The notes below the pieces were generated by a model, which searched no databases, had not been told where the DNA came from, and worked only from the letters and a program-made list of their open reading frames with translations. A stretch of DNA of 64,000 bases. It comes from Candidatus Nomurabacteria bacterium RIFCSPHIGHO2_12_FULL_42_19 (GTDB lineage: Bacteria; Patescibacteriota; Minisyncoccia; Phycocordibacterales; UBA9973). The position numbers were made by a program, and so were the translations under genes. Of the stretch, positions 19,172 through 55,534 are shown one piece after another. Location of the stretch: contig MFUM01000008.1 in assembly GCA_001786955.1 (NCBI GenBank), positions 11,062 through 75,061 on the forward strand, written 5' to 3'. How positions within the stretch are numbered: the stretch's first letter is position 1; each line of letters begins with the position of its first letter.

Positions 19172-19247
19172 CAAAAACTTGCAGTTTTTATAAAATTATG
19201 TTATAATATCAAGTAATAAGAAATATAGAGAAAGCCTGAAGGCTTTT

Positions 19248-37849: not shown

Positions 37850-37963
37850 CAGATTTTCACGGTCGCGATAAAGTGTTATATTTAAAAATGAATCAAGAAA
37901 CTAAACAATGCCAAAACCCCGAACCAGAGCGAAGCTCGGTACGGGGCAGGTTGTAAAAAAGAT

Positions 37964-39667: not shown

Positions 39668-39675
39668 ATATAAAG

Positions 39676-39708
39676 TATTCTAATATTCTATAGAATTATA
39701 GAATAGAT
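39676..39708. promoter_or_regulatory. Inverted copy of the near-palindromic element, upstream of Cys-rich paralog 3
   Basis: tattctaatattctatagaattatagaatagat is the reverse complement of the 36165-36193 element. Confidence 0.5.
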
Positions 39709-39712
39709 AATT

Positions 39713-41455
39713 ATGAAAAGCGAGACAAAAAACTGCCAAAATTGCAAAAAGGATTTCACGATAGAACCGGATGATTTTGGGTTTTATGAGAAAATAAAAG
39801 TTCCGCCGCCGACTTTTTGTCCGGAATGCCGGCTTATTCGTCGGCTTGTCTGGCGCAACGAGAGAATATTATATCGCCGGATTTGTAATCTTTGCAATAA
39901 GAATATCATTTCCATGTATCATGAATCTGTGCCTTTTCCTGTGTATTGTCGGGAGTGCTGGTATGGGGACGGCTGGGACCCCACCTCTTACGGACGGGAA
40001 TACGATATGGCAAGGCCGTTTTTTGAGCAATATAAAGAGTTTTCCAATACTGTCCCGAGGCTGATGTTTTGGCAAAGAAATGCGATTAACTCGGATTATT
40101 CAAATCATGTAGCAGAATCAAGGAATGCTTACATGTCTGCATCTGTGATAAAAGAGTCGGAGAATGTTTTTTATTCAAAAAATATAGATGATTCAAGGGA
40201 TATAGTAGACTGTTTAAATATAATAAACGGATCGGAGCAACTATATGAGACCGTAGAAGCGCAGGGGAATTACAACTCGCAATATCTTCTCCTTTGCCGG
40301 AACACCCTGGATTCGTATTATTCGTTTGATTGCATAAATTGCAGTAATTGTTTTCTTTCTTATAACCTGCGCAATAAAAAATTCTGTATTAGAAATAAAC
40401 AATATTCGCAAAAAGAATATTTTCAAGAACTGGAAAAATTTAACTTAAAAAGCAGAACTTCGCGCGAGGTTTTACTTAAAGAATTTGAAGAGGTTAAAAA
40501 ACAAGCCATCTTCCGCTTTGGCAATATAACCAAGTGTGTGAATGTTACGGGTAACAATATGCTGAATGTGAAAAACGGCAAAAATTGTTTTGAAATATAT
40601 AATATAGAAAATGCAAGTTATTGTTATAGAATTCTTGATTCTAAAGATTGTGTGGATACGAGTTTTAGTATGAAATCAGAGTTACTCTATGAATATAGCT
40701 CGGGTGGTATGAATGATTACAATGTAAAATTTTCCTATTCCGCCATGAATTTTGTCCGAAATGCGGATTATGCCGAGTCCTGTATGAATTGCAGCAATAT
40801 TTTCGGCTGTATCTCACTTCGCGATGCGGAAAATGCCATTTTAAACAAAGTTTATTCCAAAAAAGAATTTGAAACACTAAGGTCAGAAATCATCAAGCAA
40901 ATGAGCGCCTTGCCTTTCATAGATAAAGGCGGAAGAAAATACGAGTACGGGGAATTTTTTCCCATAGAAATCAGTCCATGGGCATATAATGAAACATCAG
41001 CACAAGAAATTGCTCCCCTAAGCAAAGAATCAGCCCAAAAAAGCGGCTATTCGTGGCGCGACGCAGATGAAAAAAATTTCAATATTACAATGTCGGGAAA
41101 TATGATACCGGACAATATAGACGAAGTAGGGGAGAGTATTCTGAAAGAAGTTTTGGGCTGCGCGCATGAAGGGAAATGCAACCATCAATGTAATATCGCT
41201 TTTCGTATAACCGATTACGAGTTTAAGTTTTACAAAAAACACGACATACCTTTGCCGATTTTTTGCCCGAATTGCCGTTATTATGAGAGATTTAAAGTGA
41301 TGCCAGGGCTAAAATTATATAAAAGAAATTGCATGTGCGACAAAGCCGGTCACGGGCACAATGAAAAATGCCCGAATGAATTTGAGACAAGTTATTCCCC
41401 CGACCGGCCGGAAAAAGTGTATTGCGAAAGTTGTTACAACAAAGAAGTTTACTGA
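39713..41455 (+). CDS. Cys-rich paralog 3 (580 aa)
   Basis: Same architecture as paralog 2; C-terminus '...FCPNCRYYERF...CMCDKAGHGHNEKCPNEFETSYSPDRPEKVYCESCYNKEVY' is nearly identical to the paralog 2 C-terminus. Confidence 0.6.
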   Translation: MKSETKNCQNCKKDFTIEPDDFGFYEKIKVPPPTFCPECRLIRRLVWRNERILYRRICNLCNKNIISMYHESVPFPVYCRECWYGDGWDPTSYGREYDMARPFFEQYKEFSNTVPRLMFWQRNAINSDYSNHVAESRNAYMSASVIKESENVFYSKNIDDSRDIVDCLNIINGSEQLYETVEAQGNYNSQYLLLCRNTLDSYYSFDCINCSNCFLSYNLRNKKFCIRNKQYSQKEYFQELEKFNLKSRTSREVLLKEFEEVKKQAIFRFGNITKCVNVTGNNMLNVKNGKNCFEIYNIENASYCYRILDSKDCVDTSFSMKSELLYEYSSGGMNDYNVKFSYSAMNFVRNADYAESCMNCSNIFGCISLRDAENAILNKVYSKKEFETLRSEIIKQMSALPFIDKGGRKYEYGEFFPIEISPWAYNETSAQEIAPLSKESAQKSGYSWRDADEKNFNITMSGNMIPDNIDEVGESILKEVLGCAHEGKCNHQCNIAFRITDYEFKFYKKHDIPLPIFCPNCRYYERFKVMPGLKLYKRNCMCDKAGHGHNEKCPNEFETSYSPDRPEKVYCESCYNKEVY

Positions 41456-44976: not shown

Positions 44977-44991
44977 ATAGGGCTTTTTGGT

Positions 44992-45666
44992 TTGGCTAAT
45001 TTTTGCTATAATTTAAAAATGAAATACTCTGCGGTGATTTTTGACTGGGACGGGACACTAGGAATGACGCTTCATATATGGCTGGAAGCATATAAAAGTG
45101 AACTAAAAAATCTAGGTATAGAACTATCAGACCAAACTATTATTGAGGATTTTTTCTATGAGCACAAAAAGACAGCAACAAAATATCCAAATATTGATTT
45201 CGATCCTTATATAGAAAAAGTCCGCAAATATATGATTAGTCATGCACCTTTAATGAAACTTTATTCCGGAGTGAATGAGACATTAGAGAAATTACAAACG
45301 AGAGGTATTGTTCTCGCTTTGGTTTCTTCAAGCCCCAGAAAATTACTTGAAGAAGTGCTTGAACTGACCGGGCTGTCGAAATTTTTCTCAGCCATTTCCG
45401 GGTTTGACGATATTATGAAACACAAACCTGACCCAGAACCTTTTTTGTATATTATGGAAATTGCAAAACTTGATCCGAAAACCACAATTATTTTAGGAGA
45501 TTCACCACACGACATCATTGCCGCAAAAGCAGCAGGCATAGATTCTTGTCTTTTCTTGCCTCCGGAAAATAAAATATTTTATGATTTCGATCAGCTTAAA
45601 AAGACAAACCCAAATTATTCCATTGAAACTCTGGAAGAATTTTTGGAGCTTATTTTAAATAGTTAA
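44992..45666 (+). CDS. HAD-superfamily hydrolase (phosphatase, subfamily IA-like)
   Basis: Motif I 'VIFDWDGTL', motif II 'LVSSS', motifs III/IV 'K...GDSPHDIIAAKAAG'. Confidence 0.7.
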   Translation: MANFCYNLKMKYSAVIFDWDGTLGMTLHIWLEAYKSELKNLGIELSDQTIIEDFFYEHKKTATKYPNIDFDPYIEKVRKYMISHAPLMKLYSGVNETLEKLQTRGIVLALVSSSPRKLLEEVLELTGLSKFFSAISGFDDIMKHKPDPEPFLYIMEIAKLDPKTTIILGDSPHDIIAAKAAGIDSCLFLPPENKIFYDFDQLKKTNPNYSIETLEEFLELILNS

Positions 45667-45707: not shown

Positions 45708-47810
45708 ATGGATTTGCCGGAAATACCCATAAATAAAGATGTTACTTATCTCGGTCTAACGACTTATCGGGACAAAAACACACTTTTTGGCATTAAGCGC
45801 AAAGACCGGCGTCAGCATGTTTATCTGCTCGGAAAATCCGGGACCGGTAAATCTGTCCTAATGTTCAACATGATTATCCAGAATATCCAGAACGGCGAAG
45901 GGGTTTGCTTGGTTGACCCGCACGGAGAGAATGTTGAAGCGGTTTTATCCGCCATTCCGCCTCATCGCATGAAAGATGTCATTTATTTTAATCCGGCCGA
46001 TGCGGACTATCATATCGGTTTTAACGTTTTGGAGCTGATTGACCCGCAATACAAGCATCTGGTGGCTTCCGGCTTGATGGGTATTTTTACCAAAATCTGG
46101 GCCAATGCTTGGAGTGCCCGGATGGAATATATTTTAAATAATACGATTTTGGCCCTGCTGGATACGCCGGGCACGACGCTTCTTGGTATTCCCCGAATGC
46201 TGGTGGATAAAGATTACCGTCAGAAAATAATTTCCAATTTGAAAGACCCCGTCATCAAGGCTTTTTGGGTTCACGAATACGAAGCTTGGCAGGATAAATT
46301 CAGAAATGAAGCCATTGCGCCGATTCAGAACAAAGTTGGGCAGTTTCTTTCCACTTCTATCATCCGGAATGTTGTCGGCCAGTCCAAAAGCACCATCAAT
46401 GTTTTTGACATGATGAATGAGGGAAAGATTTTCCTGGTAAATGTTTCCAAAGGGCGTATCGGCGAAGACAACTCCGCCTTGCTGGGCGGCATGATTATTA
46501 CCAAAATCCAGCTGGCAGCCATGGAACGTGTGCGCATTCCCGAAGAACATCGCAGGGACTTTTACCTTTACGTGGATGAATTCCAGAATTTCGTGACGGA
46601 TGCTTTCGCGGGCATTTTATCCGAAGCCAGAAAATACAGACTGAATCTGACCGTGGCTCATCAATATACTGCCCAACTTGTTTCGGATAAAAGCACGGCG
46701 GTGCGCGATGCCGTTTTCGGCAACGTCGGGACGATGATAGTTTTTCGTGTTGGTGCGGACGATGCCGATTTTCTGGAAAAAGAATTCGAACCGGAATTTA
46801 TTCCTCAGGACATAGTTAATTTACCGAACTATAAAGTTTATATGAAATTAATGATAGACGGCGTAACTTCCAGGCCGTTTTCCGCCAAGACTTTGCCACA
46901 GATGGTAAAGTCCGGTGATAAAAAAATAGAAGAAGAGGTTATCCAGTCTTCGCGCGCCCTTTATTGCCGTCCGAAAGAGGTTGTGGAGCGGGAAATCAAT
47001 GACTGGAGCGGAATGTCTCTCGGCAATGACAATGAAACTGCCCCGGGAAGCCTGGAAAAATTTCCGGCTGTTTGTTCATTTTGCAAGAAAGAAACAACCG
47101 TGCCTTTCAAGCCGGAGCCGGGCAGGACAGTTTATTGCAAAGATTGCATAGCCAGAATAAAATCCGGGGAGATAAAAGTGGAAAAGAGCGGAGAACATCA
47201 AATCAAGCATGATGAAACAAAATTTTTTAAGCCATTAGCCGACATAGGGATAGAGTTTGAACAAAAAGACAGGGGTAAAATAGAAGAAGGGGAGAGATAT
47301 CCGGAGCGGGGAGATCACCACTTGGATAAACCTAAATCTGGAGTATTCGGAGCGATTAAAAAAGTTTTTACCTCGCCGCCGAAAGTTTCTAAACCTGCCC
47401 ACGCAGGCGGGGATAATTCGGCCTTGAGAGAAGTTTTAAAAAAGATAGATGAACCTATTTCACTCGATACGCTAAAAAATAAAACTAAAGAAGTCAGTAA
47501 AATTTCTATGCCCTCAAAAGACAGAGCCGCCAGCCCGGAAGATATGAATAAATTAAAAGATTTGATTGCGGAAAAAATTCCTGCCCGCAATGCTTCTAGC
47601 ATAGCTGATGCAGGCGGGGAACCCAAAGAAGAAAACACCACCCCGGCTAAAGCCACCCCTCCTCCGAAAGGAGGGGAAGAAATTCCCCAAAAACCTACAC
47701 CCGTCTCTACTCAAGGCTCCGGCGAGGCAAAGCCAGTTCAAGAGCCTCCACTGACAAAAGGAAACATTCAAGAAATCCCCGAAGATGTCTTAAGAAAAAT
47801 TTTAGAATAG
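45708..47810 (+). CDS. VirD4/TraD/TrwB-like (type IV coupling protein-like) P-loop ATPase, cytoplasmic, with C-terminal CxxC-x13-CxxC zinc ribbon and acidic/Pro-rich tail
   Basis: Walker A 'LLGKSGTGKS', Walker B 'FYLYVDEFQNF', coupling-protein-like 'LTVAHQYTAQL' motif. No TM helices. C-terminus 'CSFCKKETTVPFKPEPGRTVYCKDC'. Confidence 0.55.
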   Translation: MDLPEIPINKDVTYLGLTTYRDKNTLFGIKRKDRRQHVYLLGKSGTGKSVLMFNMIIQNIQNGEGVCLVDPHGENVEAVLSAIPPHRMKDVIYFNPADADYHIGFNVLELIDPQYKHLVASGLMGIFTKIWANAWSARMEYILNNTILALLDTPGTTLLGIPRMLVDKDYRQKIISNLKDPVIKAFWVHEYEAWQDKFRNEAIAPIQNKVGQFLSTSIIRNVVGQSKSTINVFDMMNEGKIFLVNVSKGRIGEDNSALLGGMIITKIQLAAMERVRIPEEHRRDFYLYVDEFQNFVTDAFAGILSEARKYRLNLTVAHQYTAQLVSDKSTAVRDAVFGNVGTMIVFRVGADDADFLEKEFEPEFIPQDIVNLPNYKVYMKLMIDGVTSRPFSAKTLPQMVKSGDKKIEEEVIQSSRALYCRPKEVVEREINDWSGMSLGNDNETAPGSLEKFPAVCSFCKKETTVPFKPEPGRTVYCKDCIARIKSGEIKVEKSGEHQIKHDETKFFKPLADIGIEFEQKDRGKIEEGERYPERGDHHLDKPKSGVFGAIKKVFTSPPKVSKPAHAGGDNSALREVLKKIDEPISLDTLKNKTKEVSKISMPSKDRAASPEDMNKLKDLIAEKIPARNASSIADAGGEPKEENTTPAKATPPPKGGEEIPQKPTPVSTQGSGEAKPVQEPPLTKGNIQEIPEDVLRKILE

Positions 47811-47812
47811 AG

Positions 47813-47841
47813 TCTATTCTATAATTCTATAGAATATTAGA
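47813..47841. promoter_or_regulatory. Near-palindromic 29-bp element, second direct copy, abutting the start of Cys-rich paralog 4
   Basis: Identical to 36165-36193, including the next 12 nt of coding sequence (ATGAAAACAGAA). Confidence 0.5.
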
Positions 47842-49602
47842 ATGAAAACAGAAACAAGAAATTGTCAAAACTGTAAAAAGGACTTCACGATAGAACCCGA
47901 GGATTTTAATTTCTACGAGAAAATCAAAGTTCCTCCGCCGACCTTTTGTCATTTGTGTCGGGCACAGAGGAGATTGGCCTTTAGAAATGAGAGAAAACTT
48001 TTTAAAGTAAAAGATGCTTTTACTGGAGAAAGTATTTTTTCCACTTTTCCCACAGAAAGTGGCAGAAAGATAATTAAGAGAGAAATCTGGATGGGAGACA
48101 CTTGGGATGGCATGGAATACGGTCGGGAGTATGATTTTTCAAAACCTTTTCTACAGCAGTTGCGCGAACTTATCAACTCTTTGCCGATATACAATTTTAA
48201 CGTTATACGCATGGTAAATAGTCCATATTCTTTCAATGCTACGGACCTCAAAAATAGTTATCTTGTCTGCAACTCAAGTTATTCAGAGGATTGCATGTAC
48301 GGGAACGCCATTGATAATTGTAAAGATTGTGTAGATAACTCTCATATTCATGAGTCCGAGCGGTGTTATGAATCCTTTTGGCTCGCCAAATGTTATCAAT
48401 GCTATTTTACCCAGAGGGCAGAGGAGTCCAGAAATCTATGGTTTTGTCGTGGGTGTGTAGGCTGCCAAGATTGTTTCGGGTGTGCTAATTTAGTCAATGC
48501 TTCGTATTGCATTTTTAATAAAAAATATAACCCAGATGAATATCGTAATATTATAAAAGGAATGGAGTTAGATACATACGAAGGAATAATGGTGGCCAGA
48601 GAAAAGGCGCGCGTATTTTGGGATACCCAGCCCGTAAAAAGTATTCAAGGAATAAAGAATGTGAACTCTTCTGGTTCCTATATTACTCACTGCAGGAATG
48701 TTAAGGATAGTTATTTAGTTCGGGAGAGTGAAAACATCCGCTACTGCCAATATCTGCAAGTACCCTCCAGTAAAGAGAATTACGATGTGACAGTGTGGGG
48801 AAACAATACCGAGCTTTGTTACGAGACGGTAGAGTGCGGAGATGATTCGTATAATAATAAATTTACTTGGAATTGTTGGCCTGCTTGTAGAAATCTTGAA
48901 TACTCTACGCATCTTTTCAGTTCTTCGGATTGTTTTGGATGTTCAGGACTAAAGAAAAAACAATATTGCATTTTAAACAAGCAGTATACGAAAGAGGACT
49001 ATAAAGCAATGGTGGAGAAGATTAAAAAACACATGGATGAAATGCCTTATGTCGATGTTCGTGGCCTAATCTATAAATACGGAGAATTTTTACCAATAGA
49101 ATTTTGTCCTTTCGGTTATAACAATACTTTAGCAGGCCAGCATTTTACCTTATCTAAAGAAGAAGCGCTAAAGAATAATTATGGATGGGTTGACGGAGAA
49201 CGAGGAGAATACACTATTACTAAAAAATCTTCGGAACTCCCGGAGTCTATTACCAGCACTTCAGATGATATTTTGAAAGAAGTTTTCGAATGTCAATCAT
49301 GCAAAAATGCTTACCGCGTTCTCGAAAATGAATTGATTTTTTTGCGCAAGGAAAATTTGTCGGCTCCACGTCTCTGTAGTGAATGTAGGCATGAGCGTAG
49401 AATCAACGACAGGCTGAAATTATTTTTATACGAAAGATCCTGTATGTGCGCTGGTATTACCGACCAGACCAATACATATAAAAATACCATTTCTCATAAT
49501 CACAAAGATTTTCCGTGTGGAGAGGTATTCAAAACCGGCTATGCTCCAGACCGCCCGGAAATTGTTTACTGCGAGAAATGTTACCAACAAGAAGTGTATT
49601 GA
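47842..49602 (+). CDS. Cys-rich paralog 4 (586 aa)
   Basis: N-term 'CQNCKKDFTIEPEDFNFYEKIKVPPPTFCHLCR'; central 'CVGCQDCFGCANLVNASYCIFNKKYNPDEY' and 'CFGCSGLKKKQYCILNKQYTKEDY...YKYGEFLP'; C-term '...PDRPEIVYCEKCYQQEVY'. Confidence 0.6.
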   Translation: MKTETRNCQNCKKDFTIEPEDFNFYEKIKVPPPTFCHLCRAQRRLAFRNERKLFKVKDAFTGESIFSTFPTESGRKIIKREIWMGDTWDGMEYGREYDFSKPFLQQLRELINSLPIYNFNVIRMVNSPYSFNATDLKNSYLVCNSSYSEDCMYGNAIDNCKDCVDNSHIHESERCYESFWLAKCYQCYFTQRAEESRNLWFCRGCVGCQDCFGCANLVNASYCIFNKKYNPDEYRNIIKGMELDTYEGIMVAREKARVFWDTQPVKSIQGIKNVNSSGSYITHCRNVKDSYLVRESENIRYCQYLQVPSSKENYDVTVWGNNTELCYETVECGDDSYNNKFTWNCWPACRNLEYSTHLFSSSDCFGCSGLKKKQYCILNKQYTKEDYKAMVEKIKKHMDEMPYVDVRGLIYKYGEFLPIEFCPFGYNNTLAGQHFTLSKEEALKNNYGWVDGERGEYTITKKSSELPESITSTSDDILKEVFECQSCKNAYRVLENELIFLRKENLSAPRLCSECRHERRINDRLKLFLYERSCMCAGITDQTNTYKNTISHNHKDFPCGEVFKTGYAPDRPEIVYCEKCYQQEVY

Positions 49603-49639
49603 AAACTAAGATTTCTGCTATCGCAGAGTTTTAAGTAAA

Positions 49640-51391
49640 ATGAATACAAAAACAGAAACTAGAATATGCCAGAACTGTAAAAAGGACTTCACGATAGAAC
49701 CGGAGGATTTTAATTTTTATGAGAAAATGGCGGTGCCAGCTCCGACTTGGTGTCCTGATTGTCGTTTGCAGAGGCGCCTCACTTTTCGCAACGAAAGAAC
49801 TTTTTACAAACGCCCATGCGATCTATGTGGTGTAAGCACTATTTCAAGATATGATCCCTCTAAGGGAGAGTTAAGTTATTGTGGGGAATGCTGGTGGAGT
49901 GACAAATGGAATCCCGCAAGCTACGGACAGGGCTATGATTTTTCGAGACCATTTTTTGAGCAATTTTCGGAGCTTATGAAAAAAGTTCCGCATCAAAATC
50001 TATCTGTAAGCTATAAGACACTCACTAACAGTGATTTTACAAACATGAATCATTACTTGAAAAATTGTTATTATATATTTAACTCCGACTACGATGAGAG
50101 ATGTTTGTACGGAGAGGAGATAGAACACAGTGCCGATTGTATGGATATGACGATGGCCGAAAACACCCAACTTGCCTATGAGAGCGTAAATTGCAATAAA
50201 TGCTATCAAATTTATTATTCCGTAGATTGCGAAAGTTCCCATGATATTTGGTTTTCTAAGAATTTAGTTGGCTGTTCGAATTGCTTCAGTTGTATTAATT
50301 TGCGTGGTCAACAATATTGCATTTTCAACGAAAAATATAGCCGAGAAGATTATCTAAAAAAACTACAGAAGTTTAATCTAGGTTCTTATGCTGGCACTCA
50401 AGGAATTAAAAAAGAAGCTGCAGGATTCTGGCTCAAATTCCCAAATAAATACATGCATGGAATTCAGAATTTGGATTCCACCGGTGACTATATCTATAAT
50501 TCCAAATATGTAAAAAAATCATTCGTTATTGCAGGAGGAGAATATTGCAAATATTGTTTCCTGCTGATTGGTAAAAATAATAAAGAATGTTATGACTTCA
50601 CGCAGTTTGGCGAGAACACGGAAAAAGTATACGAATCATTAGTTTCTGGGAATGGCATCAGTAATGTTATTGGGGGCATCGTGACTCTCGAAGGAAGAAA
50701 TATAAGATATTCTGTGGATTGCCGTGATAGCAATAGATTTGGTTGTGTAGGGATACGTGATAAAAAACATTATATTTTCAACAAAGAATATACAAAGGAG
50801 GAATATGAAAATTTAGTGCCGAAAATAGTTGAACACATGAATAGCATGCCTTATATTGACAAGAAGGGCTGCCAATATGTTTACGGCGATTTCTTCCCGA
50901 CAGAAATTTCTCCCTATAGTTATAATGAAACCACTGCTCAGGAATTTTTTCCATTAACTAAGCAAGAAGCCGGAGAACAAGGATATTCATGGAAAGAACC
51001 GAAGGAAAGAAATTATAAAATAACTATAGAATCGGAAAATTTACCCGATAATATTAAGGATATTCCAGACGATATGGTATCCGCGGTAATCGGTTGTGAG
51101 CATGGAGGTAAATGCAAAGAACAATGCACTATCGCTTTTAAAATCATAGAACCTGAATTGCAATTTTATAAATCACAAAATTTGCCACTTCCGCATTTGT
51201 GTCCTAATTGCAGACATTACCAAAGAGTTTTAAACAGAAACCCAAATAAATTTTGGCATAGACAATGCATGTGCGACAAAAAGCATGTTCATCACGAAGG
51301 GCAATGTGAAGTCGAATTTGAGACTTCATACGCCCCCGAGCGACCAGAAATTGTATATTGCGAAAAATGTTACCAGCAAGAGGTGTATTAA
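49640..51391 (+). CDS. Cys-rich paralog 5 (583 aa)
   Basis: Same architecture; N-term 'CQNCKKDFTIEPEDFNFYEKMAVPAPTWCPDCRLQRR'; C-term 'CPNCRHYQRV...CMCDKKHVHHEGQCEVEFETSYAPERPEIVYCEKCYQQEVY'. Confidence 0.6.
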   Translation: MNTKTETRICQNCKKDFTIEPEDFNFYEKMAVPAPTWCPDCRLQRRLTFRNERTFYKRPCDLCGVSTISRYDPSKGELSYCGECWWSDKWNPASYGQGYDFSRPFFEQFSELMKKVPHQNLSVSYKTLTNSDFTNMNHYLKNCYYIFNSDYDERCLYGEEIEHSADCMDMTMAENTQLAYESVNCNKCYQIYYSVDCESSHDIWFSKNLVGCSNCFSCINLRGQQYCIFNEKYSREDYLKKLQKFNLGSYAGTQGIKKEAAGFWLKFPNKYMHGIQNLDSTGDYIYNSKYVKKSFVIAGGEYCKYCFLLIGKNNKECYDFTQFGENTEKVYESLVSGNGISNVIGGIVTLEGRNIRYSVDCRDSNRFGCVGIRDKKHYIFNKEYTKEEYENLVPKIVEHMNSMPYIDKKGCQYVYGDFFPTEISPYSYNETTAQEFFPLTKQEAGEQGYSWKEPKERNYKITIESENLPDNIKDIPDDMVSAVIGCEHGGKCKEQCTIAFKIIEPELQFYKSQNLPLPHLCPNCRHYQRVLNRNPNKFWHRQCMCDKKHVHHEGQCEVEFETSYAPERPEIVYCEKCYQQEVY

Positions 51392-51434
51392 TATCTTATT
51401 CTAGTGTTTTGCAAAAGACTGAAATAATAAAAAC

Positions 51435-53207
51435 ATGAAAAGCGAAACTAAAAATTGTCAAAATTGCAAAAAAGATTTCATGATAGAATCGGAGGATTTT
51501 AATTTTTATGAGAAAATTAAAGTTCCTCCGCCGACTTTTTGCCCTGAATGTAGGCTAATTCGCAGAATGACTTGGCGCAACGAGCGATCACTTTTTAAAA
51601 GAGTTTGCGCAAAAACGGGAGAACAAATAATAACCATGTTTCATCCCGAAATTAATATGGTGGTGTATGACCACGACGTGTGGTGGAGCGATAAATGGGA
51701 GCCGACGGATTACGGAAAAGATTACGATTTTTCTCGACCTTTTTTTGAACAGTTTAGGGAACTATTCCAAAAAGTACCGCTTGCAAATTTAGGGAATTCA
51801 AACTGTAAAGGAAGTCCGTACGGTAATCACAATGCGGATTGCAAATATTGCTATTTGACATACGCTTCTTTTAATAATGAACGAACACATTATTCTTATG
51901 GAGTAGTTGAAACGAAAGATTGTGTAGATATGTATAAATGCGGTAAATCTGAATTAAGTTACAACGACACCCTTTGTGCCGGCTTATATAAAACCCATTT
52001 TTCTTACGATTCCGATGAGTCGATAAATTCTTTTTTCTTAAAGTATTGCAAAAATCTGCAGGATTGCATTGGCTGTGTTAATTTAAGGAACAAGAGTCAT
52101 TGCATTTTAAATGTGCAATATACGAAGGAAGAATATAAAAAGAAAAAAAAAGAATTGGACTTCGGCAGCTATCGAATTCTCTCTGAATTTAAAGATTCTT
52201 ACGACAAATTTGTTCTTAATTTTCCAAACAGATACGCAAGTATTATAAAATCCACCGAAGCAACTGGCGACGAAATTATGAATTCCAAAAATATAAAAAA
52301 TTCTTTTGATATTTTTGGAGAGGCTGAAGATTCAAAATATTTATTTCACTGCGTAAGTATTAAAGACAGTTATGACATGTATGGCGCCGGATTGGCGTCT
52401 CTTATGTATGAGGGGATAGATGCTGGCATAGACGCGTCAAAAGAACTGTTCTGCGCGATTGCCCATAGTTGTTTGGATATTTATTATTCTTATATGTGTT
52501 TTAGCTCAAAAAATCTTTTTGGCTGTATTGGGTTGCGAGGTAAGCAATATTGTATTTTAAATAAGCAATATTCCAAAGAGGAATACTTTAATTTATTACC
52601 TAAAATTATTGAACACATGAACACCATGCCTTTTAAAGATAAAAAAGGTCTAATTTACAAATATGGAGAATTTTTTCCATCCGAATTGTCGCCTTTTGCT
52701 TATAATGAAACGATGGCTCAGGAGTATTTTACTAAAACAAAAGAAGAAATAATTCAAAAGGGGCATGTTTACCGAACACCAACTGAAAAAGATTATCAAG
52801 TTACCATATTGAGTAAAGATTTGCCGGATCACATCAGAGATGTTCCTGAAACCATACTTGAGGAAATTATCGCTTGTCCTAACAATGGACAAGAATCAAC
52901 TCAATGCACTAAGGCTTATCGCATCACTAAACCGGAATTAGATTTTTTAAAAAATAATAATATTACACTACCAAGATATTGTCCGAATTGTAGACACTAC
53001 GGAAGGCTGAAGCAAAGAAATCCGTTTCATCTTTGGCGAGGCAAATGCCAGTGTGCTGGAGATTATTCCAAAAACAAAAAATATAAAAACACAATGGAGC
53101 ATATCCACGGAAACAAACCATGTCTGAATGAGTTTGAAACCCCATACGCTCCCGAGCGGTCGGAAATAATTTACTGCGAAAAGTGTTATCAGCAGGAAGT
53201 ATATTAG
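51435..53207 (+). CDS. Cys-rich paralog 6 (590 aa)
   Basis: Same architecture; N-term 'CQNCKKDFMIESEDFNFYEKIKVPPPTFCPECRLIRR'; C-term '...ETPYAPERSEIIYCEKCYQQEVY'. Confidence 0.6.
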   Translation: MKSETKNCQNCKKDFMIESEDFNFYEKIKVPPPTFCPECRLIRRMTWRNERSLFKRVCAKTGEQIITMFHPEINMVVYDHDVWWSDKWEPTDYGKDYDFSRPFFEQFRELFQKVPLANLGNSNCKGSPYGNHNADCKYCYLTYASFNNERTHYSYGVVETKDCVDMYKCGKSELSYNDTLCAGLYKTHFSYDSDESINSFFLKYCKNLQDCIGCVNLRNKSHCILNVQYTKEEYKKKKKELDFGSYRILSEFKDSYDKFVLNFPNRYASIIKSTEATGDEIMNSKNIKNSFDIFGEAEDSKYLFHCVSIKDSYDMYGAGLASLMYEGIDAGIDASKELFCAIAHSCLDIYYSYMCFSSKNLFGCIGLRGKQYCILNKQYSKEEYFNLLPKIIEHMNTMPFKDKKGLIYKYGEFFPSELSPFAYNETMAQEYFTKTKEEIIQKGHVYRTPTEKDYQVTILSKDLPDHIRDVPETILEEIIACPNNGQESTQCTKAYRITKPELDFLKNNNITLPRYCPNCRHYGRLKQRNPFHLWRGKCQCAGDYSKNKKYKNTMEHIHGNKPCLNEFETPYAPERSEIIYCEKCYQQEVY

Positions 53208-53245
53208 AACCCTTCCCGCCTGCGAAGGAGGGGATTGAGGGGTGG

Positions 53246-53983
53246 TTAGATGCCTTTTACCGTCCGGTAAGTGGCTATAATGGCGGCAGTTTCGGCGCGT
53301 AGAGTAAGTGACCCCAGGGAATAAATATTATAACCAGAATTTTTTGCCAAGTTTATCTCCTTTTCCGTAAAACCGCCTTCGGGACCGATAAAAATGCTGA
53401 TATTCTGTGCTTCCTTGTTCGGGATATATAAATTATTTCCTAAATGAAAAATTATTTTTTCTTCTGCTTTGTTTCCGTCAGTTAAGGCGTCTTTAAATTT
53501 TAGAATAGGAAATAATTCCGGGACGAAACTTCTCCCGGACTGCTCACTTGCTTCCAAGATTATTTTTTTTAGACGGTCTGTGTTTAATCCGGTTTTTATT
53601 GTTCTTTCAGTGATTGTCGGTATGATTTCCGAAACTCCGGCCTCAACCGCTTTCTGTACCGCTAACTCGAAATTTTCTTTTTTCAAAATTGCCAGATACA
53701 GACTCACTTTTCTTTTGGTTTTGTCTTTTTTTTCTACTTTATTAATGATACCCGTAACTTTATTTGCAGATACTAGAACCAAAGTTACTTCCGCATTATT
53801 TCCCTTGCCATCTGCGAGAATTATTATATCGTCTTTTTTTAATCTCAAAACGCCCTTTATTTGCTTGATTATTTTGGTATCAAGAATTTCCACTTCTGTA
53901 CCCGAGATAAATCCCTGTCCGCCTTTGGTGGAATAGTTCCCGATAAATCTGTTTAGTCGCATTCTTTTATGATACACTTTCAA
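53246..53983 (-). CDS. rsmE: 16S rRNA (uracil1498-N3)-methyltransferase RsmE
   Basis: SPOUT-fold C-terminal region 'IGPEGGFTEKEI...TLRAETAAI'; N-terminal PUA-like region. Confidence 0.75.
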   Translation of the reverse strand: MKVYHKRMRLNRFIGNYSTKGGQGFISGTEVEILDTKIIKQIKGVLRLKKDDIIILADGKGNNAEVTLVLVSANKVTGIINKVEKKDKTKRKVSLYLAILKKENFELAVQKAVEAGVSEIIPTITERTIKTGLNTDRLKKIILEASEQSGRSFVPELFPILKFKDALTDGNKAEEKIIFHLGNNLYIPNKEAQNISIFIGPEGGFTEKEINLAKNSGYNIYSLGSLTLRAETAAIIATYRTVKGI

Positions 53984-54004
53984 CGTTGAACAATCAATAA
54001 ATAA

Positions 54005-55534
54005 GTGTTAAAATCATTAATATCTATGGCCAAACCGAATCGAGTGCAAATAATCAAATACGGTCCGCCGCCGCCGGAACTGCCTATATTCGGGAAGGTC
54101 AAGCCCGAAGAGGTTTCTTTTATCGGCCGGACCAATTATGTCGCGGCTCTGGAAGAAAAAAAGTTTATTTTCGGCATCAAACGGGTGGACCGCCGGAGGC
54201 ATCTTTACATTATCGGCAAATCGGGGGTAGGCAAATCGAAACTTTTGGAACTTCTGGTCAGGCAGGATGTAAGTTATGGGCATGGATTGTGTTTTATTGA
54301 TCCGCACGGCGATGAATTTAAAAACATTCTGGATTTTGTTCCCAAGGAACGCATTGAGGATGTTTGTGTGATTGATCCCACTGACGTTGATTTCCCGGCT
54401 TCATTTAATCCTCTGGCCAACGTTGATCCCGCTTTTAAATTCATTTTGACCCAAGGGTTGATTGAGGTATTTCAAAAACAATTCGGAGCAAATTGGACGC
54501 CCCGCCTGGAGCACGTTTTTCGTTTTACTTGCCTAGCGCTGCTGGATTATCCTCATGCCACTATGCGCGGAATGATTTCCATGCTGACGGACCGGAATTA
54601 CCGGCAGAAAGTAGTGGAGTATATTACGGACGACATGGTAAAAAGATTCTTCGCGATTGAATTCGCGGACTGGTCGGAAAAATTTGATACGGATGCGATT
54701 ATCCCGCTGGTTAACAAACTCGGACAATTTCTTTCGGATCCGCTTCTGCGAAATATCTTCGGTCAGAAAGAAAATAAAATAGACATTAGCAAACTGATGA
54801 ATGAAGGCAAAATTATCCTGATAAACATTTCCAAAGGCCGACTCGGAGAAGAGAATTCCTCTTTTCTCGGTTCTATCTTTTTGACGAAAATAAAACAGGC
54901 CGGCATGGAGCGCGCTTCAATGGACGAGTCTGCGCGCACGGATTTCTATCTCTATGTGGACGAGTTCCAAAATGTGGTAACCCAAACCTTTGAAAATATT
55001 TTATCGGAGGCCCGTAAATACGGACTTAATCTGACTATCGCGCATCAGTATGTGGGCCAGATTATTACCAAGGTGCACCAAGCCGTACTCGGTAATTGCG
55101 GCAGTATTATAACTTTCCGTGTGGGTGGCGAAGACGCGGTAAAAATGAAGCCGGAATTCGCTCCGCTTTTTGATGTGAAAGATATGATCAACCTGGCTGT
55201 CGGTGAAATCTATATAAAAATGACGATAGACGGCGAATCTTATGATCCATTCTCTGCCGAAACCCTAAGAGTCCTTCCCCCGACTCATCCATCCTATCGA
55301 GAGGAAATTATAGAGGCTTCGCATCGAAAATATACGATACCGAAAGATGCGGCCGCCAAGCTTATCGCCGAAGAAGAAGCGACAATTATCCGGAGCGCCG
55401 AAGAAAAAGCGATAATTGAAGGGAGGGCTAAAAGGAAAGCAAGAGAGCGCGGGGAGACGGTAGAGACGGATGACGGCGGCGAAAAAGAAGAAATAAAAGA
55501 AAAAACTTCACAAGAGGCCGAGCCCATGATTTAG
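54005..55534 (+). CDS. VirD4/TraD-like ATPase, second paralog (no zinc ribbon; acidic C-terminal tail)
   Basis: Walker A 'IIGKSGVGKS', Walker B 'FYLYVDEFQNV', 'LTIAHQYVGQI'; collinear with the 45708-47810 protein over ~400 aa. Confidence 0.55.
   Translation: MLKSLISMAKPNRVQIIKYGPPPPELPIFGKVKPEEVSFIGRTNYVAALEEKKFIFGIKRVDRRRHLYIIGKSGVGKSKLLELLVRQDVSYGHGLCFIDPHGDEFKNILDFVPKERIEDVCVIDPTDVDFPASFNPLANVDPAFKFILTQGLIEVFQKQFGANWTPRLEHVFRFTCLALLDYPHATMRGMISMLTDRNYRQKVVEYITDDMVKRFFAIEFADWSEKFDTDAIIPLVNKLGQFLSDPLLRNIFGQKENKIDISKLMNEGKIILINISKGRLGEENSSFLGSIFLTKIKQAGMERASMDESARTDFYLYVDEFQNVVTQTFENILSEARKYGLNLTIAHQYVGQIITKVHQAVLGNCGSIITFRVGGEDAVKMKPEFAPLFDVKDMINLAVGEIYIKMTIDGESYDPFSAETLRVLPPTHPSYREEIIEASHRKYTIPKDAAAKLIAEEEATIIRSAEEKAIIEGRAKRKARERGETVETDDGGEKEEIKEKTSQEAEPMI

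What the first reader, a model, noticed from the sequence alone, without database searches (positions are those of the whole stretch)
45708..55534. Two cytoplasmic VirD4/TraD-like ATPase paralogs; one carries a Zn ribbon sharing a motif with the Cys-rich proteins
ORFs 45708-47810 and 54005-55534 are collinear paralogs.
- **ATPase features.** Both have P-loop Walker A (GKSGTGKS / GKSGVGKS), Walker B (YLYVDEFQN) and a 'TVAHQY..QL' motif typical of type IV coupling proteins (TraG/TraD/VirD4). Neither has the N-terminal TM anchor of canonical T4CPs.
- **Shared motif.** The first ends in a CxxC-x13-CxxC ribbon 'VPFKPEPGRTVYCKDC'. Its core x-P-(D/E)-x-P-x(2-3)-VYC-x-x-C also terminates the Cys-rich paralogs ('YSPDRPEKVYCESC', 'YAPERPEIVYCEKC'). 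A motif shared between an ATPase and its neighbours argues for functional coupling.
- **Placement.** The ATPases sit beside the second triplet (one directly before it, one after the intervening rsmE).
- **Possible roles.** Coupling-protein-like ATPases without a membrane anchor, next to candidate substrates, could form a novel substrate-recruitment, DNA-handling or defence-like module.
Basis: partly seen in the sequence, partly recalled or inferred. Interest (0 to 1): 0.7.

Follow-up and report, generated by a model that had tools for sequence, protein, structure and literature searches.

The report
Split type IV coupling-protein ATPases
The two ATPases are real, highly conserved relatives of the "coupling proteins" of bacterial conjugation machines; their missing membrane half is a separate gene 22 kb upstream, and they sit next to a family of zinc-binding proteins far more often than chance allows, which gives a testable handle on a near-universal protein of unknown role in these tiny bacteria.

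Summary
ORFs 45708-47810 (ATP1, 700 aa) and 54005-55534 (ATP2, 509 aa) are 43% identical P-loop paralogs with no membrane segment. Two details are wrong: the ribbon is CxxC-x17-CxxC, not x13, and it is followed by about 220 more residues.

- **Family.** Profile searches place both nearest type IV coupling proteins (TrwB, DotL), not HerA or FtsK.
- **Missing anchor.** It is a separate gene. The DUF8128 protein (window 22346-23695) has an N-terminal hydrophobic helix and a fold like the VirB4 N-terminal domain. It lies directly upstream of ATP1 in 33 other lineages. It is fused to the ATPase in some Patescibacteria paralogs and in plasmid and phage coupling proteins. It ends exactly where ATP1 begins, so this is a gene fission.
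- **Shared motif.** It is a real shared domain (zf_Tbcl_2 / TIGR04272). It is also generic, found in 1,315 other protein clusters.
- **Co-location.** Cys-rich genes lie near the ATPase genes about eight times more often than expected.
- **Conservation.** ATP2 is as conserved as DnaK.

"Orphan" coupling-protein homologues in Patescibacteria were reported in 2025. I found no report of the split architecture or the Cys-rich association. Function is inferred, not shown.

The parts
45708..47810 (+). ATP1: the motor half of a split type IV coupling protein (700 aa). ATPase core aa 1-440, Zn ribbon, variable tail, conserved C-terminal peptide.
   Evidence: ORF. Pfam TrwB_AAD_bind 42.6 bits, T4SS-DNA_transf 30.6, TraG-D_C 25.2, zf_Tbcl_2 43 bits. 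The best PDB match is TrwB. More than 8000 homologue clusters, all named ones from Patescibacteria. No TM segment.
45831..45854 (+). ATP1 Walker A, GKSGTGKS (aa 42-49).
   Evidence: Sequence. Aligned with the TrwB P-loop. Invariant G42, G45, G47 and K48 across 14 diverse homologues.
46560..46589 (+). ATP1 Walker B region, FYLYVDEFQN (aa 285-294).
   Evidence: Sequence. Aligned with TrwB LWLFIDELASL. D290, E291 and F292 are invariant.
47073..47147 (+). ATP1 CxxC-x17-CxxC zinc ribbon (aa 456-480), CSFCKKETTVPFKPEPGRTVYCKDC.
   Evidence: PF23477 zf_Tbcl_2 E 3.6e-11. TIGR04272 44.9 bits against a cut-off of 36. Spacing is x17 in 120 of 120 homologues. A narrow ribbon HMM matched ATP1-type ORFs 70 times across the 80 genome loci.
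47772..47807 (+). ATP1 conserved C-terminal peptide EIPEDVLRKILE, after a variable linker. A probable docking motif (inferred).
   Evidence: C-termini of homologues. Column conservation is 0.95 here against 0.01-0.25 in the preceding 60 residues.
54005..55534 (+). ATP2: the second motor paralog (509 aa). No ribbon. The N-terminus keeps the PPPPELP junction motif, and the extreme C-terminus EAEPMI is conserved.
   Evidence: ORF. 43% identity to ATP1. Pfam TraG-D_C 26.8 and DUF87 30.2 bits, TrwB_AAD_bind 20.2 against a cut-off of 20.5. Median 85% identity to orthologues, equal to DnaK. C-terminal motif. Junction motif.
22346..23695 (+). DUF8128 (PF26449) protein, 449 aa. N-terminal hydrophobic helix plus an alpha/beta domain. 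The inferred membrane-anchor half of the split coupling protein.
   Evidence: - tblastn E 3e-42 to the gene lying directly upstream of ATP1 in other lineages.
- Precomputed PF26449, named DUF8128.
- Hydrophobic segment aa 1-34.
- AF2 model pLDDT 74.5.
- A diverse profile matches the N-terminal domains of fused coupling proteins, E 5e-7 to 9e-16.
- It ends at PPSNLPT, exactly at the fusion junction.
21190..22218 (+). Sigma-70 region 4 plus HARE-HTH protein (342 aa). Conserved immediately upstream of DUF8128. A possible DNA-binding component (tentative).
   Evidence: Pfam Sigma70_r4 9.7e-12 and HARE-HTH 8.5e-11. It belongs to cluster 4, which is present in 24 of the distant loci, typically in the order secD-secF-cl4-DUF8128-ATP1. 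It also precedes DUF8128 in L116, L125 and L142.
47842..49602 (+). Cys-rich paralog 4 (586 aa, 36 Cys).
   Evidence: ORF. No TM segment. The family has more than 6000 clusters, all annotated as hypothetical.
49640..51391 (+). Cys-rich paralog 5 (583 aa, 34 Cys). Zn-ribbon termini with a variable, beta-solenoid-like centre.
   Evidence: - AF2 model pLDDT 84.6, pTM 0.88.
- Sub-threshold PF13451 and PF23477 hits on fragments.
- The ATP1 ribbon profile matches the pooled Cys-rich C-terminal profile at 96.4% probability and the pooled second N-terminal ribbon profile at 94.7%.
51435..53207 (+). Cys-rich paralog 6 (590 aa, 30 Cys).
   Evidence: ORF. Aligned in A4.
36194..41455 (+). First triplet of Cys-rich paralogs (36194-37849, 37964-39667, 39713-41455), between grpE and dnaK.
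   Evidence: ORFs. 33-46% identity to paralog 5. The same position is occupied by Cys-rich genes in most related loci.

Best explanation
**What it is.** ATP1 and ATP2 are two chromosomal copies of the motor (nucleotide-binding) half of a Gram-positive-type type IV coupling protein of the VirD4/TrwB family.

**The split.** In Patescibacteria this protein has been split by gene fission. Its N-terminal half became a separate protein, DUF8128 (window 22346-23695). That half carries a membrane helix and a domain folded like the N-terminal domain of VirB4. In this lineage the DUF8128 gene and the motor genes have drifted 22 kb apart.

**Inferred working model.**
- The soluble motors assemble into rings and dock on DUF8128 at the membrane.
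- They use ATP to recruit or pump a macromolecule. Nucleic acid or nucleoprotein is the most likely substrate.
- The target is either the Patescibacteria type IV secretion system or nothing further (the machine acts alone).

**Partner-binding features.** ATP1 carries a generic CxxC-x17-CxxC zinc ribbon. It also has a long flexible tail ending in a conserved docking peptide. ATP2 carries a different conserved C-terminal peptide.

**The Cys-rich proteins.** They have conserved Zn-ribbon ends and a variable beta-solenoid-like centre. They are an expanded family, seen here mainly in Paceibacteria-type genomes, and they are encoded next to the motor genes far more often than chance. They are therefore probable partners, as adaptors or as cargo.

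**Shown:** family placement, the fission, the co-location and the conservation.
**Inferred:** ring assembly, docking on DUF8128, the nature of the substrate, and any physical link with the Cys-rich proteins.
For: **Family placement.**
- Pfam scores above the cut-offs.
- In a profile search of the PDB, TrwB scores E 1.6e-10, DotL 1.3e-6 and HerA 6e-4.
- The closest relatives outside Patescibacteria are the coupling proteins of conjugative clusters, lying next to replication-relaxation relaxases.

**Fission.**
- A gene for a ~440-aa protein with an N-terminal TM helix lies directly upstream of ATP1 in 33 of 48 distant loci. The same domain is fused to the ATPase in 816-831-aa paralogs.
- A profile of this family matches the N-terminal domains of an 812-aa Embleya coupling protein (E 5e-7), a 913-aa B. 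subtilis plasmid coupling protein (E 1.7e-14) and the 825-aa phage G gp156 (E 9e-16).
- DUF8128 ends at "..EELATMWHFP..PPSNLPT", and ATP1 starts at the next position of the fused proteins.

**Module.** Contiguous arrangements occur elsewhere:
- DUF8128, ATP2, five Cys-rich genes, ATP1 (L081).
- HTH, DUF8128, ATP1, two Cys-rich genes, ATP2, one Cys-rich gene (L125), and similar orders in L106, L142 and L104.

**Co-location.**
- 31 of 80 ATPase-centred loci hold Cys-rich genes.
- In 20 of the 34 loci with both ATPases, Cys-rich genes lie between them.
- 20 of 79 loci chosen by Cys-rich similarity hold an ATPase, against 2.3 expected (P about 1e-13).

**Core role.**
- ATP2 has a median 85% identity to its orthologues, against 83.5% for DnaK.
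- The genomic context is housekeeping.
- Coupling-protein homologues occur in 2,918 of 3,035 Patescibacteria genomes, about two per genome (PMC12102498).

**Nucleic-acid hint.**
- The same ribbon occurs in tandem in small RGG-rich proteins and in what looks like a Csl4/S1-type protein (my reading of the sequence, not a profile result).
- An HTH protein is conserved upstream of DUF8128.
Against: - No physical interaction was tested or modelled between any pair of DUF8128, ATP1, ATP2 and the Cys-rich proteins.
- In this window DUF8128 is 22 kb from ATP1, so linkage here rests on other genomes.
- The match to the VirB4 N-terminal domain is moderate (8% identity, TM-score 0.30). I inferred the aligned region from the absence of other RecA-like hits; I did not read it from an alignment.
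- No virB4, relaxase or other secretion gene lies in the 64-kb window.
- Only 148 of 5,713 homologues lie near virB4. The homologue in Ca. Southlakia epibionticum was not essential for epibiotic growth, although the secretion-system genes were (PMC12102498).
- Cys-rich genes also occur far from the ATPases (L082; most loci). None were detected near ATP1 in most of the distant lineages.
- The shared ribbon is generic.
- The ATPase fold itself was not modelled, so the all-alpha domain and the ring were not examined.
Confidence: 0.6

Rival explanations
1. ATP1 and ATP2 are truly soluble, anchor-less coupling-protein-like ATPases. They act in the cytoplasm on the neighbouring Cys-rich proteins as substrates, recognised through the shared ribbon motif.
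For: - Neither has a TM segment.
- In the window lineage and about 30 related genomes, no DUF8128 gene lies within 10 kb of them.
- Cys-rich genes lie between or beside them.
- The ribbon domains are homologous.
Against: - DUF8128 lies directly upstream of ATP1 in 33 other lineages, is fused in some paralogs and in plasmid coupling proteins, and ends exactly at the junction.
- DUF8128 is retained in this genome.
- The ribbon is a generic module, also present in ATP1 of lineages where no Cys-rich neighbours were seen.
Confidence: 0.15
2. There is no functional coupling between the ATPases and the Cys-rich family. The Cys-rich genes are a mobile, tandemly duplicating family that settles in several permissive, highly expressed housekeeping operons. 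The shared ribbon is a generic domain.
For: - Cys-rich genes also sit after grpE, after scpAB and after ftsW, with no ATPase nearby.
- 59 of 79 Cys-centred loci show no ATPase.
- The ribbon occurs in 1,315 other protein clusters.
- ATP1 in distant lineages has no Cys-rich neighbour.
Against: - About eight-fold enrichment of co-location over a simple expectation, P about 1e-13.
- The association survives rearrangement into at least four different gene orders, and outside the dnaK context (L029, L036, L040-L043, L081, L104, L106, L125).
- In 20 of 34 loci the Cys-rich genes lie precisely between the two ATPase genes.
Confidence: 0.3
3. The ATPases were recruited to protein quality control. They work with the DnaK-DnaJ-GrpE chaperones, for example in handling the many-zinc Cys-rich proteins.
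For: In the window and about 25 related genomes the order is grpE, Cys-rich genes, PaaX-like gene, dnaK, ATP1, Cys-rich genes, ATP2, dnaJ. The genes are co-directional with short gaps.
Against: In other lineages the same ATPases sit with secDF, alaS, mnmA or other housekeeping genes, and dnaK is absent from the neighbourhood. The dnaK linkage is therefore lineage-specific. Nothing in the sequences resembles a chaperone or a protease adaptor.
Confidence: 0.08
4. It is an anti-phage or conflict module. A HerA/mad8-like ATPase works with a diversifying family of sensor proteins.
For: - The best PADLOC hit is mad8 (E 5.5e-14), with weak HerA hits.
- The Cys-rich paralogs have conserved ends and a variable centre.
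- A PemK toxin gene lies inside the module in L081.
Against: - The family is near-universal in Patescibacteria, at about two copies per genome (PMC12102498).
- ATP2 is as conserved as DnaK.
- The context is housekeeping.
- No methylase, nuclease or other defence genes are nearby.
- The profile is closer to TrwB than to HerA.
- Both families are virtually absent from viral contigs.
Confidence: 0.03

Closest known systems
TrwB / VirD4 / TraD / DotL type IV coupling proteins
   Same: - P-loop NTPase core with matching Walker A, Walker B and Q motifs.
- Pfam TrwB_AAD_bind, T4SS-DNA_transf and TraG-D_C.
- TrwB and DotL are the best solved relatives.
   Different: - No TM anchor in the same polypeptide.
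- Far below the NCBIfam cut-offs for any named TraD or VirD4 family.
- Chromosomal, in housekeeping operons, and not next to virB4 or a relaxase.
- Two paralogs per genome.
- A Zn ribbon, a long tail and conserved C-terminal peptides.
Large Gram-positive-type coupling proteins of conjugative elements and jumbo phages: B. subtilis plasmid NZ_OX419581 WP_144625398.1 (913 aa), Embleya plasmid WP_331738717.1 (812 aa), Bacillus phage G gp156 (825 aa)
   Same: - The ATPase half is 25-32% identical to ATP1 over 80-96% of its length.
- The N-terminal 300-390 residues are homologous to DUF8128 (E 5e-7 to 9e-16).
- The same junction motif..EL(A/S)..(H/R)(F/L)P.....PP..(L/I)P.
   Different: Those are single polypeptides. 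The two plasmid proteins lie beside a relaxase and VirB4-like or Tcp genes, and phage G gp156 lies beside a VirB-like gene. Here the two halves are separate genes, the motor is duplicated, and there is no conjugation context.
'T4CP homologues' of Patescibacteria reported by Quinonero-Coronel et al. 2025 (PMC12102498)
   Same: Almost certainly the same proteins. That study reports 5,713 VirD4-type homologues in 2,918 of 3,035 genomes (about two per genome). Only 148 lie near virB4, and the authors say exaptation cannot be ruled out.
   Different: The passages of that paper I searched for those terms do not mention the lack of a TM anchor (no occurrence of "transmembrane"), DUF8128, the Zn ribbon, the terminal peptides or the Cys-rich neighbours. 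I did not read the whole paper.
VirB4 (TrwK), and the split TrsD + TrsE arrangement of pGO1-type systems
   Same: - An N-terminal domain followed by a RecA-like ATPase.
- The DUF8128 model matches the TrwK structure best.
- A precedent for the VirB4 N-terminal part being a separate protein, TrsD (as described in PMC12102498).
   Different: - The ATPase is closer in sequence to coupling proteins than to VirB4. AAA_10 scores 16.3 bits against a cut-off of 27.5, and TrwK is absent from the profile hits.
- The fused relatives occupy the coupling-protein position, with a separate VirB4-like gene in the same cluster.
Legionella DotL-DotM-DotN-IcmS/W-LvgA coupling complex
   Same: A coupling protein that works with dedicated cytoplasmic adaptor subunits (composition as stated in PMC12960579). 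That DotN binds zinc is my own recollection and was not checked here.
   Different: No sequence relationship between the Cys-rich family and DotN, IcmS or IcmW was found or tested. This is an analogy only.
CxxC-x17-CxxC (TIGR04272 / PF23477 zf_Tbcl_2) small zinc proteins, such as those of Methanosarcina mazei
   Same: The ATP1 ribbon is a bona fide member. Zinc binding by this domain was shown experimentally for two M. mazei proteins (PMC12704099).
   Different: There the domain is free-standing or tandem in small RGG-rich proteins. Here a single copy is appended to a coupling-protein motor, and degenerate copies occur at two positions in the Cys-rich proteins.

Membership tests
Type IV coupling protein (VirD4/TraD/TraG/TrwB) | P-loop NTPase with Walker A, Walker B and the conserved Q motif, alignable to TrwB. 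| tested here: met
   Motifs in the sequence. Aligned to the TrwB P-loop and Walker B/Q region. Invariant in 14 diverse homologues.
Type IV coupling protein (VirD4/TraD/TraG/TrwB) | Score above the curated Pfam cut-offs for the family domains (PF10412, PF02534, PF12696). | tested here: met
   ATP1: 42.6 against 20.5, 30.6 against 20.1, and 25.2 against 22 bits. ATP2: PF12696 26.8 against 22 (met), PF10412 20.2 against 20.5, and PF02534 18.1 against 20.1 (both just below).
Type IV coupling protein (VirD4/TraD/TraG/TrwB) | Membership of a named NCBIfam model (TraD, SXT_TraD, CD1115 VirD4-like and others). | tested here: not met
   Best scores are 41-56 bits against cut-offs of 250-650. The proteins belong to no curated subfamily.
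Type IV coupling protein (VirD4/TraD/TraG/TrwB) | N-terminal transmembrane anchor in the same polypeptide. | tested here: not met
   No hydrophobic segment in ATP1 or ATP2, and no room for an upstream extension. The anchor is inferred to be supplied by the separate DUF8128 protein.
Type IV coupling protein (VirD4/TraD/TraG/TrwB) | Genetic linkage to a relaxase or to type IV secretion genes. | tested here: not met
   The ORFs of the 64-kb window that I scanned or recognised are housekeeping genes: gyrA, clpB, typA, infB, alaS, ribosomal proteins, grpE, dnaK and dnaJ. Not every ORF was scanned. In the literature, 148 of 5,713 homologues lie near virB4 (PMC12102498).
Type IV coupling protein (VirD4/TraD/TraG/TrwB) | All-alpha domain inserted in the nucleotide-binding domain; hexameric ring. 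| not tested
The only indication is that the Pfam TrwB_AAD_bind match spans aa 31-349.
HerA / FtsK translocases | Closer profile similarity to HerA or FtsK than to coupling proteins; HerA-type accessory features. | tested here: not met
   In the profile search of the PDB, HerA scores 6e-4 against 1.6e-10 for TrwB, and no FtsK hit appears. The DUF87 hit is weak (28.8 bits), and the PADLOC and NCBIfam HerA hits are partial.
VirB4 | VirB4-type ATPase domain (AAA_10 / CagE_TrbE_VirB) joined to a VirB4 N-terminal domain. | tested here: inconclusive
   [not shown]
zf_Tbcl_2 / TIGR04272 CxxC-x17-CxxC domain | CxxC-x17-CxxC spacing and an HMM score above the cut-off (ATP1). | tested here: met
   PF23477 43 bits against 27. 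TIGR04272 44.9 against 36. Spacing is x17.
zf_Tbcl_2 / TIGR04272 CxxC-x17-CxxC domain | The same domain in the Cys-rich proteins. | tested here: inconclusive
   - The window copies score 11-19 bits against a cut-off of 27.
- The first CxxC knuckle is degenerate in most window copies.
- Profile against profile gives 96.4% and 94.7% probability.
- Some family members carry a precomputed PF23477 hit.
- A narrow ATP1-ribbon HMM did not detect the window copies.
MADS (mad8) or another PADLOC defence system | A full gene set of the system in the neighbourhood. | tested here: not met
   Only a single-component hit to mad8, E 5.5e-14 and 6.4e-12. The neighbours are dnaK, a protease, a HAD hydrolase, rsmE and dnaJ. 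The Cys-rich proteins have no PADLOC hit of note.

The most novel reading that the evidence does not exclude
DUF8128, ATP1 and ATP2 form a Patescibacteria-wide membrane motor. It was exapted from a conjugative coupling protein for a core task of the epibiotic lifestyle, and it no longer serves conjugation. One candidate task is relaxase-independent import or export of nucleic acid or nucleoprotein. In Paceibacteria-type lineages, the expanded Cys-rich proteins (Zn ribbons plus beta-solenoid) would be its dedicated adaptors or its cargo. In the second case they could be the long-sought substrates of the essential Patescibacteria type IV secretion system.
Probability: 0.2. Interest if true: 0.85.

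Novelty: new variant of a known kind. Interest (0 to 1): 0.6.

Why it matters
Type IV secretion genes were found essential for epibiotic growth in Ca. Southlakia epibionticum, the one member of the phylum tested so far (as reported in PMC12102498). Neither the substrates of that system nor the role of the near-universal "orphan" coupling-protein homologues is known.

This analysis turns an anonymous annotation into a concrete parts list with specific interfaces that can be tested:
- The homologues are the motor half of a split protein.
- The membrane half is DUF8128.
- There are two motor paralogs, each with a distinct conserved docking peptide.
- One lineage has a large family of zinc proteins encoded between the two motor genes.

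It also gives DUF8128 a first functional assignment. More generally, it shows that a coupling protein can exist as a two-gene system.

Tried and rejected
- **Narrow ribbon HMM.** An HMM built from the ATP1 ribbons of close homologues found no Cys-rich protein in the window. It was too narrow. Pfam on fragments and profile-profile comparison were needed.
- **Shallow DUF8128 profile.** The alignment of 67-79% identical sequences (A3) against the Embleya coupling protein gave only a non-significant junction match. A diverse profile built from the fetched loci gave significant matches.
- **Family scans of DUF8128.** Pfam and NCBIfam scans of DUF8128 and of the fused N-termini found nothing, because PF26449 is not in the local Pfam copy. 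A literature search for PF26449 or DUF8128 found no paper.
- **AFDB fold search.** The library was unavailable.
- **HerA/FtsK and defence readings.** Considered and rejected.
- **Phage origin.** Considered. Both families are virtually absent from 2.9 million viral contigs.
- **Secretion-gene context of the fused paralogs.** Their neighbours were scanned for secretion genes. Only housekeeping genes were found.
- **RNA elements.** Rfam and tRNA scans found no RNA element in or near the finding. The promoter and terminator scans were not informative.
- **Wang et al. 2023 (PMC10633639).** The main text contains none of the four terms searched: VirD4, coupling protein, T4CP, type IV secretion.
- **DotN.** The zinc-binding precedent could not be confirmed from the papers held.

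Full report
**1. Observation**

The two ORFs exist as described.
- ATP1 is 45708-47810 (+), 700 aa.
- ATP2 is 54005-55534 (+), 509 aa, with a GTG start.

They align collinearly over about 450 residues at 43% identity, E 2e-135.

The quoted motifs are present: Walker A (GKSGTGKS and GKSGVGKS), Walker B (FYLYVDEFQN) and the LT(V/I)AHQY..Q motif. Walker B and the Q motif align with the corresponding TrwB motifs.

Neither protein has a hydrophobic segment. ATP1 cannot be extended upstream, because a stop codon lies three codons before the ATG.

- The ribbon is CxxC-x17-CxxC (aa 456-480), not x13. It is x17 in all 120 closest homologues.
- ATP1 does not end there. A further ~220 residues form a variable tail with conserved patches and an almost invariant C-terminal peptide, EIPEDVLRKILE.

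The closest database matches (100% identity) are proteins of Candidatus Nomurabacteria bacterium genomes from groundwater.

**2. What the ATPases are**

*Family scans.* ATP1 passes the Pfam cut-offs for TrwB_AAD_bind, T4SS-DNA_transf, TraG-D_C and, weakly, DUF87. ATP2 passes TraG-D_C and DUF87 and misses TrwB_AAD_bind by 0.3 bit.

*Solved structures.* A profile of 14 diverse family members (A2) was searched against all PDB sequences:

| Match | E-value |
|---|---|
| TrwB | 1.6e-10 |
| DotL/IcmO | 1.3e-6 |
| HerA | 6e-4 |
| FtsK | no hit |

The coupling-protein placement stands.

*Limits of membership.* Scores against every curated NCBIfam TraD, VirD4 or VirB4 model are far below the cut-offs. 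The proteins belong to the superfamily but to no named subfamily. The best PADLOC hit, mad8, is a single-component similarity with no companion genes.

*Literature.* Quinonero-Coronel et al. 2025 (PMC12102498) screened 3,035 Patescibacteria genomes:
- 5,713 VirD4-type homologues in 2,918 genomes, about two per genome.
- Only 148 of them near virB4.
- VirB4 itself in 2,417 genomes.
- The homologue in Ca. Southlakia epibionticum was not essential.
- The authors conclude that exaptation "cannot be ruled out".

ATP1 and ATP2 are almost certainly these proteins. Their existence as orphan homologues is therefore already known.

**3. The missing anchor is a separate gene**

I fetched 80 genome loci around ATP1 relatives and compared them with the window genes.

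*Adjacency.* In 33 of the 48 more distant loci, the gene directly upstream of ATP1 encodes a ~440-aa protein with an N-terminal hydrophobic helix. The usual order is secD, secF, an HTH protein, this protein, ATP1, then alaS or mnmA.

*Fusion within Patescibacteria.* In a third kind of paralog (816-831 aa; L066, L074, L054) the same domain is fused in front of the ATPase.

*The window copy.* The window has this gene at 22346-23695 (449 aa, tblastn E 3e-42). It still lies behind the same HTH gene (21190-22218) and ahead of mnmA and alaS, but without ATP1.

*Identity of the family.* It is Pfam PF26449, DUF8128. That model is not in the local Pfam copy, which explains the empty scans.

*Fusion outside Patescibacteria.* A diverse DUF8128 profile matches the N-terminal 300-390 residues of large coupling proteins:

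| Protein | Length | E-value | Neighbours |
|---|---|---|---|
| B. subtilis plasmid protein | 913 aa | 1.7e-14 | relaxase, TcpD, TcpE, VirB4-like gene |
| Embleya plasmid protein | 812 aa | 5e-7 | PrgI, a second ATPase, relaxase, NlpC/P60 |
| Bacillus phage G gp156 | 825 aa | 9e-16 | VirB-like gp155 |

*The junction is exact*.
- The fused proteins read "..LN.EEla.l.HfP..(about 20 aa)..PP.NLP" and then "..G.t.fRg....fgi...DRRrH.YiiGktG.GKt".
- DUF8128 ends at "..EELATMWHFP...PPSNLPT" followed by a stop.
- ATP1 begins at the next position.
- ATP2 keeps "PPPPELP" at its N-terminus.

This is a gene fission at a domain boundary.

*Fold.* The AlphaFold model of DUF8128 (pLDDT 74.5) shows a long helix (aa 2-43) and an alpha/beta domain. 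Its best match in the PDB is TrwK/VirB4 of R388:
- Foldseek probability 0.99, with several VirB4 chains in the top ranks.

No other RecA-like ATPases appear among the hits. I therefore infer that the match is to the VirB4 N-terminal domain, but I did not see the aligned residues.

**4. The shared motif**

*It is a real shared domain.*
- The ATP1 ribbon is a bona fide zf_Tbcl_2 / TIGR04272 domain.
- The Cys-rich proteins in the window match that model only below threshold: E 0.005-0.05 at the C-terminus and 0.0014 at a second N-terminal site.
- Profile against profile, the ATP1 ribbon matches the Cys-rich C-terminus at 96.4% (E 1.4e-9) and the second N-terminal ribbon at 94.7%.
- Some family members carry a precomputed PF23477 hit.

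*It is generic in the wider protein universe.* The 44-residue ribbon finds 1,315 proteins at E <= 0.001 among 1.84 billion representatives. Examples:
- Many small proteins made of 2-5 tandem ribbons joined by RGG-type linkers, all with the same "C..CG..T.VPF.P...RPV.C..C" consensus.
- One protein whose N-terminus looks like a Csl4/S1-type RNA-binding protein. This is my reading of the sequence, not a profile result.

*Reading.* The motif by itself is weak evidence for coupling. It hints that both families handle the same kind of ligand, probably nucleic acid. Zinc binding by this domain has been shown in Methanosarcina mazei (PMC12704099).

**5. The neighbourhood signal**

*Gene orders.*
- In about 30 related genomes the order is grpE, Cys-rich genes, a PaaX-like gene (minus strand), dnaK, ATP1, zero to three Cys-rich genes, sometimes rsmE, ATP2, dnaJ.
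- The trio persists without dnaK and in other orders:
  - ATP2, Cys-rich genes, ATP1 (L029, L035, L036, L042).
  - Cys, Cys, ATP2, ATP1 (L040).
  - DUF8128, Cys, ATP1, three Cys (L043).
  - DUF8128, ATP2, five Cys, ATP1 on an 888-kb contig (L081).
  - HTH, DUF8128, ATP1, two Cys, ATP2, Cys (L125), with similar orders in L106, L142 and L104.

*Counts*.
- 31 of 80 ATPase-centred loci contain Cys-rich genes.
- In 20 of the 34 loci with both ATPases, Cys-rich genes lie between them.
- Of 79 metagenome loci chosen only by Cys-rich similarity, 20 contain an ATPase, against 2.3 expected. The expectation is rough (two genes in 0.8 Mb). The binomial tail is 1.4e-13.

*Limits.* Cys-rich genes also occur elsewhere, for example after scpAB and after ftsW in L082. 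None were seen beside ATP1 in most of the distant lineages. The association is strong but not obligate, and it appears lineage-restricted.

**6. The Cys-rich proteins**

- The family comprises more than 6,000 clusters, all annotated as hypothetical and, where named, from Patescibacteria.
- They have no TM segment and are 5-6% cysteine.
- The model of paralog 5 is confident (pLDDT 84.6, pTM 0.88).
- Among the six window paralogs the ends are more conserved (43-50% identity) than the centre (30%, aa 121-380). This fits conserved handles around a variable surface.

**7. Conservation and context**

Median identity to the window proteins across the related loci L001-L031:

| Protein | Median identity |
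|---|---|
| ATP2 | 85% |
| DnaK | 83.5% |
| DnaJ | 76% |
| ATP1 (full length, tail included) | 72.5% |
| GrpE | 72% |
| RsmE | 55% |
| CysRS | 54% |
| Cys-rich proteins | 41-64% |

- The window is housekeeping throughout: gyrA, clpB, typA, infB, alaS, ribosomal proteins and the chaperones.
- The fused paralogs also sit among housekeeping genes, without virB4.
- Both families are virtually absent from viral contigs.
- ATP2 orthologues end in EAEPMI or EPLI. ATP1 orthologues end in ..EVPEDVLRKILE or, in other lineages..PGE.V.(L/F). These look like docking peptides.

**8. Interpretation**

*Best supported.* A split, duplicated, chromosomal coupling-protein system: DUF8128 as the anchor, plus ATP1 and ATP2 as motors.

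*Inferred.* It works at the membrane as a recruiting or translocating motor. Nucleic acid or nucleoprotein is the most plausible substrate, for three reasons:
- The generic ribbon keeps company with RGG-rich proteins.
- An HTH protein is conserved upstream of DUF8128.
- Coupling proteins are known to bind DNA (established knowledge of TrwB).

*Open.* Whether it still feeds the Patescibacteria type IV secretion system or has been exapted.
- For exaptation: the homologues are more widespread than VirB4, unlinked to it, and reportedly non-essential where the secretion system is essential.
- A caveat on non-essentiality: two paralogs could mask essentiality. That is my inference.

*Cys-rich proteins.* They are probable partners in one large lineage. 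Whether they act as adaptors or as cargo cannot be told from sequence.

*Less likely readings.* The purely cytoplasmic model, the chaperone-linked model and the defence model, for the reasons given under the rivals.

**9. Novelty and score**

- Already known: the family placement, the ribbon domain, and the existence of orphan coupling-protein homologues in this phylum.
- Not found in the library searches I ran: the fission and the assignment of DUF8128 as the missing half, its VirB4-like fold, the two paralog types with distinct terminal peptides, the DnaK-level conservation, and the statistically supported association with an expanded Zn-ribbon/beta-solenoid family.
- I rate this a new variant of a known kind, with interest 0.6.

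Noticed in passing
window 41559-42071 (-): A 170-aa protein with a PaaX central (Cas2-like) domain (E 5e-20). It is conserved between the first Cys-rich triplet and dnaK in about 21 related loci. A 30%-identical homologue lies next to ATP2 in L041, outside any dnaK context. It may be a regulator of the chaperone or ATPase genes.
   Followed up: partly
window 21190-22218 (+): A protein with sigma-70 region 4 plus a HARE-HTH domain (RNA polymerase delta-like). It is conserved immediately upstream of DUF8128 in the window, in 24 distant loci and in L116, L125 and L142. It may be a DNA-binding member of the module.
   Followed up: partly
window 55514-55531 (ATP2 C-terminus) and 47772-47807 (ATP1 C-terminus): Two different, strongly conserved terminal peptides follow variable linkers. 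ATP2 ends in EAEPMI or EPLI. ATP1 ends in EIPEDVLRKILE in this lineage and in ..PGE.V.(L/F) in others. Their binding partners are unknown.
   Followed up: partly
proteins P0361, P0363, P0366, P0379, P0391, P0448, P0460: The ATP1 ribbon consensus recurs as 2-5 tandem copies joined by RGG or GGDRGG linkers in many 90-340-aa proteins. It also occurs twice in a protein whose N-terminus looks Csl4/S1-like (my reading). Some ATP1 homologues carry three ribbons in their tail (P0460).
   Followed up: partly
[not shown]
   Followed up: no
window 44179-45666: A trypsin-like peptidase (44179-44976) and a HAD hydrolase (44992-45666) lie between dnaK and ATP1 here. They are absent from that position in nearly all related loci, where dnaK is followed directly by ATP1. 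HAD appears only in L146.
   Followed up: no
L165 (Bacillus phage G 87999-97111); SPO1-like phages: Jumbo phage G encodes a fused DUF8128-like plus coupling-protein ATPase (gp156, 825 aa), next to a VirB-like gp155. SPO1-like Bacillus phages carry more distant homologues, at about 23% identity.
   Followed up: partly
L081 2387-2830 (-): A PemK-family toxin gene lies inside an otherwise contiguous module of DUF8128, ATP2, five Cys-rich genes and ATP1, on an 888-kb contig.
   Followed up: no
window 10920-11538 and 19089-19172: A cluster of four tRNA genes (Leu, Lys, Leu, Cys) on the minus strand, and a tRNA-Tyr upstream of typA.
   Followed up: no
L162 (Sulfitobacter mediterraneus plasmid NZ_CP081110, 99994-101181): The closest relative of ATP1 outside Patescibacteria (39.8% identity) is an isolated 395-aa gene with no N-terminal domain. 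It lies beside transposases on an alphaproteobacterial plasmid. This may reflect horizontal transfer of the motor half alone.
   Followed up: no
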